Below, piece by piece: positions 12,001-18,000 of a stretch of DNA of 64,000 nucleotides. Source of the DNA: a virus. Taxonomy: Duplodnaviria; Heunggongvirae; Uroviricota; Caudoviricetes. Where the stretch lies: IMG/VR virus record IMGVR_UViG_2718217885_000009. One strand, given 5' to 3'. Position 1 is the stretch's first letter; each line of letters opens with the position of its first letter. A program made the position numbers.

Positions 12001-15000
12001 CCAATACGCTGTTGTAGTTCCGGGGCAAACACGCCGGAAAGCACATCGAGATTTTCCGGGGTATTCAGCGAATCGATCGCCATGTCCGGCTTATCACCAA
12101 AGATTTTTTGCAGGTTGATCACGGCCTGACCCGCTTTCGCTGCATAGCCTTCGTTTGACATAAGAATTAATGGATGTCCCTTTGGCAGCTGCCCGAACAG
12201 ACGCGTTGCAGCCTCCTGATCGCCAGCCTCAATTGCTTTTCCAAGCGCTTCCATTAGTGGCTGGCTATGGGCAATCATATCGTTATACTCAAGCCGTCGC
12301 TGGTTGTATTTCTGCAACTGGAGTCGCTGCTGCTCCATACCCAGTGACGCATTCCGGTAATTCTGGTTAGCGTTAAACTCCCTTTCCTTCAGTGCATAAT
12401 TACGGTCGTCAACTTTGGCTCTGTAATCAAAGTTCCGCTGATCAACGTTTTTATTATGTTCAAACTGAGACTGCGCAAACTCAAAATCGCGCTCGTTATT
12501 TTTCTGTTGCCGGGCAAGCTGTGCTTCACGCAGACCAAGCTCCTTACGACGGGTCATTGCCTGGTCAACGGTGCTGAATCCGGCAAGTAACCCCTGTGCA
12601 AATCCGCTCATTCACCACTCCTTAAAACAAAGAACCAGCAATGCCGCCAATTACTGCTCCAGCAACAGCACCAACAGGACCACCAACGGATGCGCCAATA
12701 GCCGCCCCCGTACCAATGCCCGTACCGATATTCTGCTTGTTCTGCGCTTTCTGTTGCGCCGCCATCTGTTTGTTCGCAGCCTCAATTTCTTCACGTCGTC
12801 TGTCTGCGTCACTTATTCCCTGTAATGCCTCACGCCGCGACTGATTTGCAATATCCAGTAAACCGTATCCCATATTGCCCCCTTACGCTGCCACCAGTTG
12901 GCCGCCAACACTCAGTTTCTGTCTTGCCGGTGCAGAAGCCCCCGTCAGAATATTCATCTGGCGATCCTGTTCGGCTTCACGGATACCATTTTTCGCGCCA
13001 GCAATTGCCAGGGCATTACGTAACCCCAGCGTATTACTGTCGGGATTATCCGGGCGGTTTACCCCGTATCTCGCCATCTGGTTATCCTGCGCCATCTGCG
13101 CTGTACGGAGACTGGAAGTGGCAAGGCCTCCCACCCGTGCAAGCTGTGCATTCATCAGACTGTTGTTCTCCCCAAGGTCAGCCAGCCTTGCTACACGGGG
13201 TAAATATCTGGTGCGCCAGTCGTCGTATTGCTGGCGGGTCAGCGCTGCGGATGTCTGCCAGTCCCCCTGAGGGCGGGCTGCTCCGGTATAACCGTATCTT
13301 GCAAGTGTTTCGTATTTACCGTACTCCATAATCACAGTCTCCAGTTCTGAGCCTGATGCTGAATGGCATTAGCGCCGGTGCCAGGTGTTTTAGCACCGCC
13401 ACTTCCTCCGCTACCGCCAGCCTTATGCATCGCATATGCACCTGCCGCACCCAGACCAGCGCCAACAAGAGAGGCTCGCCCCTGCTGTTTCGTAAACGCC
13501 GCCTGTGCATCCGATTTAGCTTTTGCCAGACTGCTGTCTGCCAGAGAGTTAAAACTCTGTAACGCATCCGCCTTCTGACCAGAACCGAGAGCGGCAACAT
13601 CCTGTAGCCCGGCAACATACTTATCTGCCTGCGATACCTGCCCCCGTGTGGTTGTGTCAATCTGCCCGGTTACCTGATCACTCTGGTTCGCATTCATTAC
13701 CGCGTTAAAGCGACCACTGGACGGGTCAACACCGGACTGAGCAAGATTACCCGCCAGCTCCCTTCGCGCTTCACCAAACTGTTTCTGATAACCAAGATTT
13801 GTTGTGCCAGCGATATTGTCGTACTGCTGCTCACTGTTAAGGTCATCGACCTTTTCCATGAAGTTATCTTCAGCCGGGCGGAGGATATTTTTGTAATCCT
13901 GCCACCCTTTCCAGGCCACTTCTTCCTGTGCTATTTGCGCTGCTGTTGGTTTTACTTTGGTATCACCACCGCCTTTACTTCCACCCATAATGGCCCCCTG
14001 GATAACAAAAAACCCTGCCGGAGCAGGGTCAGAATGTGAATTACAATGTTGGTTTAAACACAATGATGAAAACTGTAGCAGTCAGACCGCTATCCTGAAC
14101 ACCATGAAGCCATCCTCATCATCCGGCATTCGCTCAAAGCCCAGTCGTTTTCCCAGCCGGATAAATCCCCGCCTTGCCGTATGGAACTCAGCCCAGCGTC
14201 CGCCAGCCAGATGGGTTAATGTCTTCACCTCCGGCAGGTAACGCTCAACGCTGTTACTCCCCGTACACACGCCCAGCAACACCAGAACATAAGGGATACC
14301 ATCAGCACTGAGCACAGAACGCAGCACCAAAAAGCCATCAGGTGCCTCAAAACAAAACGCCTGCTTTTTAAGGCAGGCGTCTTTAACTTCATTCATAAAT
14401 TCAGGGTTGCGGGAATTTCTCACAACACGCTGCATATACCAGAGAATTTTATCGTTCATTCTCTCACCTGAAACGGGTGCCATATCGGCTGAACCTCAGC
14501 AACCAGTTGACGGGGACTCTCGTCCCCGTCGCGGTTTTCCTACTGCTTACACTGTAAGAACGCCGCAAACTCCGCTCCCCACAAATTCAGCCGGAACTCA
14601 CACAGTGAACCGTGCAACATCCAGATGGTGAAGATAACCGTCATGCAAATTGTGACGGTGATAAGCGATTTTTGCGACATAGCGCTTGACTCCTTTTACA
14701 GAGAGGCGCTAACCTTCTACTTGCTTAAGGTACGAAGTGTTAGGGCCTCGGGTTAACGTTAAGTTGACTCGGGGCCTTTCCACATCAGGCCTTCAGGTTC
14801 ACCCTCCAGCCATCAGCCGAAAGGCATCCACGCATAATTTACGGTTTTTGCCCTGTACGGGCAATAAAAAACCCGCCATCACAGCGGGTAGTAAACGGTT
14901 ACCGGATACAGGTCAGAATTTCAGGCCAATGCCAGCAGTAACGCCACTCGTGCGCCAGTCGCCAGAGCCGGAACCTTCGTAAGCCACATCCAGTGTAACA

Positions 15001-18000
15001 CTCTCATTCAGGTTAAACTGTGCACCTGCAGCCCACGCAAGGGAGGTTTTTTTCGTGCTGTTGCTTTCAGAAAATCCGCCACTACTGTTAATATTGTCCT
15101 TAATTTTCAGGTCAGCGCTAACTTTAGCAACGCCCATCCCTGCCATCGCATATAAACTCATGTACTGATTAACCCGCCATGAAGGCCCCGCTAACAGACT
15201 CCAGTAATTCGCCCTGATATCCGTTCTGGCAGAAGCTGCCGGATTCTTAATCTTCCTGGTATGATCGGCTGACTGCACATCAATAAATGTCTGTGAGTTA
15301 GTGAGAGAACGCGTCCATGTAAAAGAGGTGATAACGCCAAAATCATCCGTTATCTCGTAGCGATACCTGATATTAATGCCCTGTGGATTTTTATCCTTGC
15401 CTTCATATCCACTGACCCGACCATCTGTATATTCGCCCAATGAAGAAAAGTAGTTTCTGTTGACGAAATGACTGAAAGTCTCCCTGTTATGAGCAGTCGC
15501 ATCCTTTACAAAATCCTTCAGTCCCGGAAACTGAAAGTGCGCATACCCCAGAGAAATTGTATGCTCTCCTTCTGCTGCATGTGCAGATAAATTTACACAG
15601 GCAATCCCGGAGATTGCACACACAACCAGTGTTGCTATACTCTTCATTTAAGATATCCTGTATTCAGATAACACGCTAAACTTTTTAATAATACATCTTT
15701 TTAGACATTTTAAATGAATATTAAAGACTCGCTTCAACTAATCATATACTGATGTATTAATAACCAGGACCTTATCTATATACGGCTTTCGAATATCCCA
15801 TGTTGCACCACCGGAATAATGCTCACAGGAATATATTTTATTTCCTGTAGCACCAGTGGATGTGGTATAAATCGGTCGATCATAAGGAGTTCTTTTCCAG
15901 TTATAATACCCGACCAGTGCAGGCATGATTGCGCATGGATATCCAAGGTCCTTTTCAAATTTGATATCAACAGGTATTAACTTCGCGTCAAGCAGCATCA
16001 TTTCGCCATGATAAATCATCTCACCGTCCGGGTTATACATGGCGATACCATACTCAGAAGGTGGAGTAACCATATTCGCGAAAGCATAAACCGTCGTAAC
16101 ACCAGGGTTCGTTCCCCTGACAATTACATGAAGCCTTAGTGCATGATATCCATCAATCTGTTCATGCGTGTACATGACATCGGCCTTCTTCTCTGTTCTG
16201 ATAAAGAAAAAACAACTTTTGCCTGACGGGATTGATGTTTTAAAAAAAGACTTTTCAGTCGCCGGTATGGTGCCTTTGTTGATCAGACACTGCGGCGTAA
16301 AACCTGGACTTATCCATACGCTGCCATCCGGCTTCATAATGCTCAAACCGTACATAACACTTATCCCCAGAATGTATAAATATAAGATCCCATACCCTGC
16401 TCAAGATTCGACCACGTCACCGTATTGTCATTAATGGTTATCTTCGGTACTTTCCGATCCGCAAATACATTATTCCAGGGAAATAAACAACATACAGCCT
16501 GCAATGATTTCCCGTCGGGTTTATTAGTGTACGTCTTTGAGCCAGACTCCGCTGTAAATCTGTCCAGGAAAAATACTGGAGTCAGCACGCCCGTAACATT
16601 AACGTTATTTCTGTTATAAATGGCAAAACCGTATTCCAATACTCACCTCCTGATCAGCGTAATCTGCCTATGCGAACAGCCAGTCGTCCATTCTGATCAT
16701 AAACCTCAATTTTATCATTGCGGATCACCAGTCCTACATTCTGATTAGAGTAACGAATTGTCAGTTGCCCTTGTGACGTAACACTGAAAAGGCCTCCAAT
16801 ATTCAGGTTACCCTGAGAATCAACCTGAAAGTTTCCGTTCTGAATAACGGCACTCCGGATAACTGGCGAAGTGATACTTACCCCGGCTTTTACCTCATCC
16901 GCCACAACCTTCCGCGACACCAGTGTTTCAATCACCGCGTCATAAATCATCGCTTTCGGGATCACAACCTTGCCACCTGATACCGCAAACGGATAGGCGG
17001 TGTTATCCGGGTTGTTCGGGTCAAAGACAAACAACTGCGACGCAGAAATTGCAACCTGACTTACAGGCCTGCCTTCACTGTCTTTTCCGGCGACAATCCC
17101 GATCCCCGCAGTGATACCATCAACTCCCGCTTTTTTTGACCACATTGCCAGAAACGCCTCACCGCCTTCTTTATCCAGTTTAGTGATGCGCTTGTCGACC
17201 TCATTAAGCGATTCACTGGTTGACGAATCCAGTGTGCTAATGCGGGTTTCAATACCACCAATCGTTCTTGTCGTTTCTTCCCTGAGAGTCCCCACAACTT
17301 CGGTTGTCTTAATTGCAGCATCCTTTACAGCCTGCCCCTGCGCGTTTTTTATTTCTTTACGCAGCTCGGACACAACCGGCGACTTTGCAGCCTCATCGCG
17401 GATCTGGTCAATGATGGCCTTCACGCCGATCTGTGTTTGTGCCTGAGTGCCTTTTTCAGCATTCCATGGACCTTTCACTCCTGCCGCGTTAACAAAACGT
17501 ATCCAGTAAAATCCCGACCAGCCAGGGTCAACCGGATCGCCGTAAACCTGCCCCGGCGTCGTGGCAACCAGCACTGCATCAGCAAGGTCATCCTCCGTAC
17601 CCCGCCAGATTTCAGTCAGTGAATGTCCGCGATAATTAGGCATATCCCATTCAAGAAGAACCGAGCCAAATCCTCCTGTCGCCTTAAAATTCAGCGGTTT
17701 TGTGGGAAAATCAACAGTCATTAAAGTACTGTCAATCTCAATACCCGGATTCAGTGCATATGAGGCACCACCCGATGTTCGACGCCGGGCGAGTTTAAGA
17801 CCAACCAGTTCCTCACGGGTCACAAATGCGTGGCGTCCGTCACCACGCTGCCCGGTGCCAATTTCCATGTTCTCCACAACTGTGGATAAATCCTTCCCCG
17901 CACGCCACGGTTTTCTGGTCATACCGGCATCTCCGACATCGATGTACTCAGGGTTATTCGTTCCACCTGCCCGAATCCGGATACCATCACCTGCCAGTTT

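What the first reader, a model, noticed from the sequence alone, without database searches (positions are those of the whole stretch)
14082..15647. Hok/Gef-family type I toxin-like ORF in a moron cluster with lom
A 46-codon minus-strand ORF (14540-14680) encodes a hydrophobic peptide with SLCEFR and EFAAFLQCK motifs matching the conserved Hok/Gef signature, with a good SD. It lies between lom and a 125-aa unknown ORF, each bounded by intrinsic terminators, so these look like independently transcribed accessory genes embedded in the late operon. No antisense (sok-like) promoter or mok-like overlapping frame was found by eye, so it may be a degenerate or differently regulated copy.
Basis: partly seen in the sequence, partly recalled or inferred. 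Interest (0 to 1): 0.6.

Follow-up and report, generated by a model that had tools for sequence, protein, structure and literature searches.

The report
Second Hok toxin cassette in Stx phage
The small ORF is a genuine, already catalogued Hok/Gef membrane toxin gene, sitting in a portable ~375-nt hok/sok-type RNA-regulated cassette next to lom in a Shiga-toxin phage; it is ordinary for its family, but it is not the phage's published hokW-sokW locus.

Summary
The 46-codon minus-strand ORF (14540-14680) is real. It passes Pfam HOK_GEF (33.2 bits, cut-off 22) and is annotated "Hok/Gef family protein" in RefSeq. The identical peptide (72_1589) is in a 2026 Hok catalogue whose text lists it outside the three non-toxic constructs. 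The window is a 933W/P13374-type Stx2 phage.

The ORF sits in a ~375-nt cassette (14849-14475) found at about 80% identity in roughly a third of complete E. coli genomes, in several unrelated contexts. Across 13 copies the cassette shows:
- a promoter-like site;
- a 5' element that pairs with a 3' element (tac-fbi type);
- a sequestered SD and AUG;
- a 3' stem-loop with compensatory changes.

A mok frame is indeed absent.

The hairpin after hok is not a terminator. The cassette's own terminator is missing here. The 125-aa ORF is a core late gene, not a moron.

This is not the published hokW-sokW; a decayed hokW lies at 1-117. Verdict: known kind, already catalogued, low interest.

The parts
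14540..14680 (-). hok-family toxin CDS, 46 aa (HokA-like clade; 'cluster 72' peptide 72_1589)
   Evidence: ORF list. Pfam PF01848 33.2 bits, E 4e-8. NCBIfam best hit HokA, 38.4 bits. PHROG 251. RefSeq WP_000078907.1 'Hok/Gef family protein'. Identical peptide in Table S2 of bioRxiv 10.1101/2025.08.07.668861.
14690..14695 (-). hok Shine-Dalgarno AAGGAG, 9 nt before the ATG; predicted to sit in a local hairpin (CUCU/AGGAG inside GCGC/GCGC)
   Evidence: Sequence. Consensus fold helices 9 and 10.
14836..14864 (-). Predicted hok promoter TTGCCC-17-TAAATT; homology between cassette copies in unrelated contexts starts at the -35
   Evidence: Alignment A1 columns 25-54. Only 8 of 12 consensus matches, so not called by the scanner. 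Inferred.
14813..14829 (-). Predicted hok mRNA 5' end and tac-like element GGAUGCCUUUCGGCUGA; start of the full-length match to Rfam RF01794
   Evidence: Rfam match 14829->14667. Pairs with the 3' element in the MFE and consensus folds.
14475..14492 (-). fbi-like 3' element UCAGCCGAUAUGGCACCC, complementary to the 5' end; overlaps the upstream ATG (14483) of the 133-aa reading of the next ORF
   Evidence: Helices 1 and 2 of the consensus structure are 96-97% paired across 13 copies, mostly invariant. Cassette homology ends here.
14509..14530 (-). Conserved 3' stem-loop GACGGGGAC-GAGA-GUCCCCGUC just after the stop codon (position of the processed 3' end in the R1 paradigm); not a terminator on this strand
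   Evidence: 4 of 9 pairs show changes on both sides, 99% paired. No U-run on the - strand.
14686..14715 (+). Predicted Sok-like antisense promoter TTGACT-18-TAACCT; the -10 aligns with the R1/R100 Sok -10 TATCCT
   Evidence: AGGTTAGCGCC is invariant in 13/13 copies. Rfam alignments of the window and R100. R100 sequence. Promoter function inferred.
14722..14780 (+). Predicted Sok-like antisense RNA (~57-60 nt): a ~20-nt 5' tail, a 15-bp hairpin (14743-14776) and UUU
   Evidence: Antisense hairpin -25.5 against -11.9 kcal/mol for the sense strand. The same bias holds in 13/13 copies and two hairpin alleles. Ends are inferred, not mapped.
14717..14729 (-). Leader segment complementary to the Sok-like 5' tail; in the full-length fold it pairs with 14494-14506 in the 3' UTR
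   Evidence: Helix 7: 5 of 11 pairs have changes on both sides. P(unpaired) rises from 0.27 to 0.50 when the 3' end is removed in silico.
14494..14506 (-). 3' UTR partner of the Sok-target segment
14759..14785 (-). Conserved upstream AUG (SD-like GAAGG 14790-14794) opening an 8-codon ORF, MWKGPEST*, in the window; possibly the relic of a mok-like frame
   Evidence: The AUG is invariant in 13/13. The ORF runs 1-78 codons and overlaps hok in only 2/13 copies.
14871..14889 (-). Intrinsic terminator of lom; its T-run abuts the hok -35
14913..15647 (-). lom (Ail/Lom outer-membrane beta-barrel), neighbouring moron
   Evidence: Pfam PF06316 1.5e-32. PHROG 108. GC falls to 0.35-0.44 over about 15150-16800.
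14082..14459 (-). 125-aa ORF (annotated as 133 aa from 14483); a core late-operon gene, not part of the toxin cassette, occupying the place of the cassette's terminator
   Evidence: PHROG 610 matches residues 9-133. Synteny in phiARM81mr. Other cassette copies carry CCCGCAGCG...CTGCGGGTTTT here.
14011..14030 (-). First intrinsic terminator downstream of hok on its own strand

Best explanation
The ORF encodes a Hok-family inner-membrane toxin carried in a self-contained hok/sok-type type I toxin-antitoxin cassette (14849-14475, minus strand). The cassette was inserted, together with lom, between the tail-fibre gene and the next late gene of a 933W-type Stx2 phage.

Likely mechanism, by homology with plasmid R1 hok/sok:
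- A weak promoter (TTGCCC-17-TAAATT) makes a ~355-nt or longer mRNA.
- Its 5' end (tac-like) pairs with a 3' element (fbi-like).
- The SD and AUG sit in local helices, and the antisense-target segment is paired to the 3' UTR. The full-length RNA would therefore be neither translated nor bound.
- A ~60-nt Sok-like RNA is made from the opposite strand (TTGACT-18-TAACCT; 15-bp hairpin). It pairs with leader nt ~49-108 of the opened or processed mRNA and directs its decay.
- When the antisense RNA falls, for example after prophage induction or loss, Hok is made and depolarises the membrane.

Shown here: family membership, leader homology, conserved RNA structure, strand-asymmetric hairpin, cassette boundaries.
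Taken from the literature: toxicity of the identical peptide.
Inferred: both promoters, the RNA ends, RNase III decay, the trigger and the biological role.

Departures from R1:
- no mok frame;
- no terminator after the fbi-like element in this phage, so transcripts should run into the 125-aa gene, up to the terminator at 14011-14030;
- a G->A change at mRNA +3 (window 14827) that puts an A.C mismatch in the closing helix.
For: - Protein family: Pfam HOK_GEF 33.2 bits, E 4e-8; NCBIfam HokA best hit; PHROG 251 E 2.8e-24; 45% identity to HokA, E 4e-12. The residues that are conserved family-wide (C, T, L-C-E, E), plus the second Cys, are present (with the logo described).
- Annotation and literature: RefSeq and GenBank annotation as Hok/Gef. 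Identical peptide 72_1589 was cloned as LRP157; the text names only three other constructs as non-toxic out of 45.
- Leader: full-length match to the hok-leader model RF01794 (28.2 bits, E 0.001). Sister copies score 43-51 bits (E 1e-7 to 1e-9) and R100 hok scores 88.9 bits on the same strand.
- Cassette: 375 nt at ~80% identity in 1749 of 5426 genomes, in P2-like, lambda J-stf and island contexts.
- RNA structure across 13 copies: 95.9% of cells paired against ~40% when partners are slid; 22 pairs with double changes against 2-3.
- Single-sequence MFE closes the 5' end on the 3' end.
- Antisense hairpin about twice as stable as the sense one in 13/13 copies.
- The -10 TAACCT is invariant and aligns with the R1 Sok -10.
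Against: - No expression data for either RNA were available.
- Both promoters are weak matches (8/12) and are missed by the scanner.
- RF01794 is below its gathering score (28.2 against 59).
- In R1, hok translation depends on mok. Here no mok start exists at the homologous position, and the conserved upstream AUG gives only 8 codons. How, or whether, Hok is translated from the native mRNA is unknown.
- The tac-fbi helices are nearly invariant, so they carry little covariation support.
- The window copy has an A.C mismatch there and lacks the cassette's terminator.
- The consensus structure was predicted from the same alignment on which it was counted.
- I read the toxicity result from the text and Table S2, not from Fig. 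S4 itself.
Confidence: 0.85

Rival explanations
1. Inert relic. The toxin ORF is intact, but in its native setting it is never translated, because the mok-type coupling frame is gone. In this phage the terminator is also lost and the closing helix carries a mismatch. This would resemble the E. coli K-12 chromosomal hok loci, which are regarded as inactive.
For: - No mok frame in the window and in 11 of 13 copies.
- The terminator is replaced by the 125-aa gene.
- G->A at +3.
- The literature notes that chromosomal hok loci are often non-functional.
Against: - All 13 diverged copies keep a 46-codon ORF, the SD, both promoter-like boxes and the RNA helices, with compensatory changes. That pattern is not expected of a decaying element.
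- The cassette is spread over many contexts in about a third of genomes.
Confidence: 0.2
2. Late-transcript lysis helper. The relevant expression is not from the cassette promoter but from Q-antiterminated late transcripts, which read through the lom terminator on the same strand. These would swamp the antisense RNA during induction. Hok would then act like HokW, speeding membrane failure and phage release.
For: - The cassette is co-oriented with the late genes and lies inside the late operon.
- The other hok locus of Sp5 does exactly this: HokW is made only after RecA-dependent induction, and its deletion halves phage release.
Against: - Not tested here.
- The same cassette sits at the ends of P2-like prophages and in islands where no late read-through applies.
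Confidence: 0.3
3. This is the published hokW-sokW locus of Sp5/933W.
For: RefSeq names the product 'MokW-like host killing', and the phage is 99.9% identical to VT2-Sakai over this stretch.
Against: - Published HokW is 51 aa, MKQQKAM...DYESEK (primers YO-357 and YO-369; peptide 35_712).
- It shares only 37% identity over 35 residues with this peptide.
- The hokW start matches window 1-22 instead, and the sokW probe sequence is absent from the window.
Confidence: 0.01
4. Chance ORF with coincidental motifs.
For: Short ORFs abound: 64 ORFs of at least 25 aa in 5 kb.
Against: Profile E-values of 4e-8 and 2.8e-24, plus conservation of the frame and the flanking RNA elements.
Confidence: 0.01

Closest known systems
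hok/sok/mok of plasmid R1/R100 (type I toxin-antitoxin; Rfam RF01794 leader)
   Same: - Small Hok toxin with the same conserved residues.
- About 150-nt structured leader homologous to RF01794.
- Antisense gene with a -10 at the homologous position and a homologous GC-rich hairpin.
- Same 3' order: stop codon, stem-loop, spacer, then an element complementary to the 5' end.

   Different: - 28% peptide identity.
- No mok start at the R1 position and no conserved overlapping frame.
- No terminator after the fbi-like element in this phage.
- Leader below the Rfam gathering score.
HokA (E. coli chromosomal hokA locus)
   Same: Closest named Hok: 45% identity, E 4e-12, and the best NCBIfam model. 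Both cysteines are hard-coded, so no Tyr-to-Cys RNA editing is needed.
   Different: Below the HokA equivalog cut-off (38 against 89 bits). Four residues shorter. Placed in a separate 60%-identity cluster (72 against 93) in the 2026 catalogue.
hokW-sokW of Sakai prophage 5 (Takada et al. 2021, PMC8621323)
   Same: Same phage type and the same toxin family. A prophage-borne type I TA whose toxin appears on induction and aids phage release. This is a plausible functional model.
   Different: A different gene at the other end of the phage (HokD-like, 51 aa). In this window hokW is a frameshifted, 3'-deleted remnant at 1-117.
Hok 'cluster 72/79/82' cassettes in P2-like and lambda-like prophages and islands
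   Same: The same ~375-nt cassette at 77-92% identity, with 46-aa toxins. Representatives 72_1589, 72_1621, 79_1563 and 82_1289 were among the constructs tested for toxicity.
   Different: Those copies end in their own terminator (CCCGCAGCG...CTGCGGGTTTT). The Stx-phage copies are fused to the 125-aa late gene instead.

Membership tests
Hok/Gef toxin family (Pfam PF01848) | Profile match above the curated cut-off | tested here: met
   33.2 bits against 22, E 4e-8, residues 8-44 on profile positions 6-42 of 42. PHROG 251 E 2.8e-24.
Hok/Gef toxin family (Pfam PF01848) | About 50-aa peptide with an N-terminal hydrophobic helix and the conserved C, T, L-C-E and E positions | tested here: met
   46 aa. 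C12, T14, L26, C27, E28 and E37 align with HokA-E, Hok R1 and HokW. The conserved set is as described.
Hok/Gef toxin family (Pfam PF01848) | Toxic to E. coli on overexpression | not testable with these tools
   The literature reports this for the identical peptide 72_1589: it was cloned as LRP157 and is not among the 3 non-toxic constructs of 45.
HokA equivalog (NCBIfam NF007290) | Score above the equivalog cut-off | tested here: not met
   38.4 bits against 89. HokA-like, but not HokA.
hok/sok-type type I TA locus | Leader homologous to the hok leader (Rfam RF01794) at the gathering score | tested here: not met
   28.2 bits against 59 for the window, and 43-51 bits for sister copies. The E-values are significant and the match is full-length on the right strand. 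Homologous, but outside the curated family boundary.
hok/sok-type type I TA locus | cis-encoded antisense RNA gene in the leader (promoter, recognition tail, terminator hairpin) | tested here: inconclusive
   TTGACT-18-TAACCT with an invariant -10. Hairpin -25.5 against -11.9 kcal/mol, with the same bias in 13/13 copies. No transcript data. The U-run is only 3 nt.
hok/sok-type type I TA locus | Long-range pairing of the 5' end with the 3' end (tac-fbi type) that closes the full-length mRNA | tested here: met
   Predicted in the single-sequence MFE and in the consensus fold, 96-97% paired. Few informative substitutions. The window has one A.C mismatch.
hok/sok-type type I TA locus | Overlapping mok reading frame that couples translation | tested here: not met
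   No ATG, GTG or TTG upstream of hok in either overlapping frame of the window. The conserved upstream AUG yields 8 codons and overlaps hok in only 2/13 copies.
hok/sok-type type I TA locus | 3' stem-loop after the stop codon, then a terminator after the fbi element | tested here: inconclusive
   The stem-loop is met, with 4 compensatory pairs. The terminator is absent in the window but present in 9 of the 13 copies aligned.
hokW-sokW (Sp5) | Sequence identity with the published gene and its probes | tested here: not met
Phage moron | Self-contained unit inserted between genes that are adjacent in related phages | tested here: met
   In phiARM81mr the tail-fibre gene is followed directly by the 125-aa homologue. 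The cassette has discrete ends shared across contexts. There is a low-GC block next to it. The 125-aa ORF itself fails this test.

The most novel reading that the evidence does not exclude
The cluster-72 cassette may be a working mok-less variant of hok/sok. Toxin translation would be gated only by RNA refolding and the antisense RNA, perhaps with the conserved upstream AUG acting as a short leader ORF. In Stx phages it would be transcriptionally fused to a late gene. It would then be a second, redundant induction-coupled membrane toxin, which would explain why deleting hokW-sokW only halves Sp5 release. In the O104:H4-type phage it would be the only intact hok.
Probability: 0.2. Interest if true: 0.4.

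Novelty: already known. Interest (0 to 1): 0.2.

Why it matters
The practical value lies in annotation and experiment design. 933W/Sp5-type Stx phages carry two different hok loci, and the product name "MokW-like" invites confusion with the characterised hokW-sokW.

The hokW-sokW deletion phenotypes in Sp5 were measured with this second cassette still present. Over window 14000-15700 it differs from Sp5 at a single base, 14827. In the O104:H4-type phage the published hokW is decayed and this one is intact.

The apparent lack of a mok frame across a widespread, structurally conserved cassette is a small open question about how Hok translation is licensed.

Tried and rejected
- **Equating the locus with hokW-sokW.** Rejected: the published primers and probes map to window 1-22 or nowhere, and the peptides differ.
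- **Reading the post-hok hairpin as a terminator.** Rejected: there is no U-run on that strand. The hairpin is conserved with compensatory changes and is followed by the fbi-like element.
- **Searching for mok** in both overlapping frames, with rare start codons, and from the conserved upstream AUG. No conserved frame was found.
- **Rfam at gathering threshold over the whole window.** No sok hit. The hit appears only in E-value mode.
- **PADLOC defence models** for Hok, the 125-aa ORF and the 205-aa ORF. No hits.
- **Pfam and NCBIfam for the 125-aa ORF.** No hits.
- **Treating the 125-aa ORF as a moron.** Rejected by synteny.
- **Literature search for transcript evidence of an antisense RNA at this site.** None found.

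
Full report
**What the window is.** The stretch 14000-15700 is 100% identical to Escherichia phage P13374 and its O104:H4 relatives. It is 99.9% identical to 933W and VT2-Sakai (Sp5). The window is therefore a short-tailed Stx2-converting phage of the Sepvirinae. All genes around the finding lie on the minus strand and belong to the late region: tail fibre 16654-17922, then 92-aa and 205-aa membrane proteins, lom, the small ORF, the 125/133-aa ORF, then further virion genes.

**Checking the observation.**
- The ORF 14540-14680 (-) exists as described and encodes MSQKSLITVTICMTVIFTIWMLHGSLCEFRLNLWGAEFAAFLQCKQ.
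- AAGGAG lies 9 nt upstream of the ATG.
- It passes Pfam HOK_GEF (33.2 bits against a cut-off of 22, E 4e-8).
- It hits PHROG 251 'MokW-like host killing' over its full length (E 2.8e-24).
- Its best NCBIfam model is HokA, though below that equivalog's cut-off.
- It is 45% identical to HokA, 28% to Hok of R1 and 33% to HokW. The positions that are conserved across the family (C12, T14, L26-C27-E28, E37) are present, as is the second cysteine (conserved set as described).
- RefSeq already calls it 'Hok/Gef family protein' (WP_000078907.1). Several GenBank phage records call it 'prophage host toxic membrane protein' or 'small toxic polypeptide'. The original 933W and VT2-Sakai records leave it unannotated.

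**What is already published.**
- A 2026 preprint cataloguing Hok homologues lists this exact peptide and ORF as 72_1589, a 'high-abundance cluster' representative, cloned as plasmid LRP157.
- Its text states that 42 of 45 tested homologues were toxic and names three others as the exceptions.
- Peptides of sister copies (72_1621, 79_1563, 82_1289) were also in that panel.
- That O157 genomes carry 12-14 Hok genes has been known since 2010.
- The authors explicitly did not analyse Sok, mok or the mRNA structure.

**Not hokW-sokW.** The characterised hokW-sokW locus of Sp5 (PMC8621323) encodes a 51-aa HokD-like peptide, MKQQKAM...DYESEK, as the cloning primers show. That start sequence matches window 2-22, not the finding, and the sokW probe sequence is absent from the window. 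Window 1-117 holds a hokW copy with a +1 insertion, a -1 deletion and a deleted 3' part, so it is a pseudogene whose leader lies off the window. These phages thus have two unrelated hok loci, and the one in the finding has not been studied at the locus level.

**The unit is a portable cassette.**
- A distant BLASTN search found the region in 1749 of 5426 complete E. coli genomes.
- Outside Stx phages the homology (about 77-83% identity) covers only query positions 22-396, which is window 14849-14475.
- I fetched twelve copies. They sit after ogr at the end of P2-like prophages next to serS or tRNA genes, between J and the tail-fibre gene of a lambda-like prophage, near flk, in the O157 urease island, and next to lom in other Stx phages.
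- All keep a 46-codon ORF.
- Homology begins at a -35-like TTGCC and ends just after a 3' element. In most contexts a terminator CCCGCAGCG...CTGCGGGTTTT follows.

**RNA anatomy.**
- Rfam's 'sok' model RF01794 is really the hok leader in the sense orientation, ending at the hok AUG. R100 hok scores 88.9 bits on the hok strand.
- The window matches the whole model at 14829->14667 (28.2 bits, E 0.001). Sister copies score 43-51 bits. All are below the gathering score of 59 but significant.
- Folding the 355-nt RNA 14829->14475 closes the 5' end (GGAUGCCUUUCGGCUGA) on the 3' end (UCAGCCGAUAUGGCACCC).
- The RNAalifold consensus of 13 copies has five features: this closing helix; a hairpin holding the SD; the AUG paired to the invariant UUUGCGGCGUU in the coding region; a long-range helix between leader 14717-14729 and 3' UTR 14494-14506; and a 3' stem-loop at 14509-14530.
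- Counting pairs gave 95.9% paired against about 40% when partners are slid. There were 22 pairs with changes on both sides against 2-3 in the slid controls. Five compensatory pairs are in the long-range helix and four in the 3' stem-loop.
- The closing helix is almost invariant, so it is supported by conservation rather than covariation. The structure was also derived from the same alignment on which it was counted.
- The order stop codon, stem-loop, spacer, 5'-complementary element, terminator is the order seen in R100. From established knowledge of R1 hok/sok (Gerdes and co-workers), this corresponds to the processing stop, fbi and terminator.

**The antisense gene.**
- On the + strand, TTGACT (14686-14691), 18 nt, TAACCT (14710-14715) aligns with the R1 Sok promoter TTGCGC-17-TATCCT. 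The -10 and its surroundings are invariant in all 13 copies.
- Downstream lies a perfect 15-bp hairpin (14743-14776) followed by TTT.
- This hairpin is -25.5 kcal/mol on the + strand but only -11.9 on the hok strand, because G.U pairs on one strand are A.C mismatches on the other.
- The same asymmetry holds in 13/13 copies and for two different hairpin alleles: -19.6 to -26.0 against -11.9 to -15.2.
- This is the signature expected of a functional Sok-like RNA of about 57-60 nt.
- The simple scanner does not call this promoter (8 of 12 matches), and there are no transcript data.
- Removing the 3' end in silico raises the unpaired probability of the antisense target from 0.27 to 0.50. This fits the R1 logic, in which only the processed mRNA is open to Sok.

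**Departures from the paradigm.**
1. No mok. The position of the R1 mok AUG is not a start codon, and neither overlapping frame of the window has ATG, GTG or TTG upstream of hok. An invariant upstream AUG with a GAAGG SD (14783-14785) opens ORFs of 1-78 codons. These overlap hok in only 2 of 13 copies, and the window's is 8 codons. It looks like the relic of an ancestral mok.
2. In the Stx-phage copies the cassette terminator is replaced by the next gene. The first minus-strand terminator after hok is at 14011-14030.
3. The only difference from VT2-Sakai within 14000-15700 is window 14827, which is mRNA +3 G->A. It creates an A.C mismatch in the closing helix.

**The neighbours.**
- lom is a clear Ail/Lom gene with its own terminator. 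It lies in a low-GC block (0.35-0.44) with the 205-aa and 92-aa membrane proteins.
- The 125-aa ORF is not a moron. PHROG 610 covers residues 9-133 of the 133-aa reading, which supports the 125-aa start.
- It occurs in essentially the same set of Stx phages.
- Its one distant homologue, in Aeromonas phage phiARM81mr, follows the tail-tip fibre gene directly and precedes the same run of structural genes, without lom or hok.
- The inserted block is therefore the 92-aa ORF through the hok cassette.
- A single-sequence AlphaFold model of the ORF (pLDDT 70) hits only GNAT acetyltransferase folds at TM about 0.5. This is a weak lead.

**Function.** I commit to a Hok/Sok-type mechanism: a membrane-depolarising peptide held in check by mRNA folding and a cis-antisense RNA. 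The role most likely parallels HokW, which is made after RecA-dependent induction and accelerates release. Alternatively it stabilises the prophage. Co-orientation with the late operon makes read-through expression during induction plausible. The same cassette in P2-like prophages and islands shows that it is not tied to that setting. Without mok, an inert relic cannot be excluded, though the conserved structure argues against it.

**Verdict.** This is a correct identification of an already annotated and catalogued Hok toxin. It is ordinary for its family. The useful corrections concern the antisense gene, the terminator, the 125-aa ORF and the distinction from hokW-sokW.

Noticed in passing
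window 1-117 (+): Decayed copy of the published hokW gene (HokD-like). It has a +1 insertion after ATGA, a later -1 deletion and loss of the 3' third. Its leader and sokW lie off the window. In this O104:H4-type phage, the characterised hok is therefore a pseudogene while the lom-adjacent one is intact.
   Followed up: partly
window 14827: The only difference from VT2-Sakai (Sp5) within 14000-15700. It changes the hok mRNA +3 from G to A and introduces an A.C mismatch into the 5'-3' closing helix. The other 12 cassette copies have G.
   Followed up: partly
window 14082-14483 (-): The 125/133-aa ORF (PHROG 610, unknown function) is a syntenic core late gene placed directly after the tail-fibre gene in Aeromonas phage phiARM81mr. 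A medium-confidence single-sequence model resembles GNAT acetyltransferases, including AtaT/TacT-type toxins, at TM about 0.5. Its upstream ATG (14483) lies inside the fbi-like element of the hok cassette.
   Followed up: partly
window 14759-14794 (-): An invariant AUG with a GAAGG SD in the hok leader opens ORFs of very different length in different cassette copies (1-78 codons). Two copies have a full mok-like frame overlapping hok.
   Followed up: yes
window 14357-14380 (both strands): Perfect 10-bp hairpin ACGCCTGCTTTTTAAGGCAGGCGT inside the 125-aa coding region. The scanner scores it as terminator-like on both strands, and it gives a weak sub-threshold Rfam hit (BSnc120, E 0.017).
   Followed up: no
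window 15150-16800: GC content falls to 0.35-0.44 over the 5' half of lom and the 205-aa and 92-aa membrane-protein ORFs. This is consistent with a foreign block inserted after the tail-fibre gene. The hok cassette itself is about 0.50 GC.
   Followed up: partly
window 37715-37974, 49134-49321, 50157-50240, 58447-59071, 39383-39631: Rfam matches at gathering score elsewhere in the window: AsxR and STnc100 (adjacent, opposite strands), isrK and C4 antisense RNA, three sRNA-Xcc1 copies, and three tRNAs.
   Followed up: no
L003, L009-L011, L013, L014 (E. coli chromosomes): The same hok cassette commonly sits as the last element of P2-like prophages, right after ogr and next to the insertion site (serS, or a tRNA-Leu/Cys/Gly cluster). 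There it has its own terminator.
   Followed up: partly
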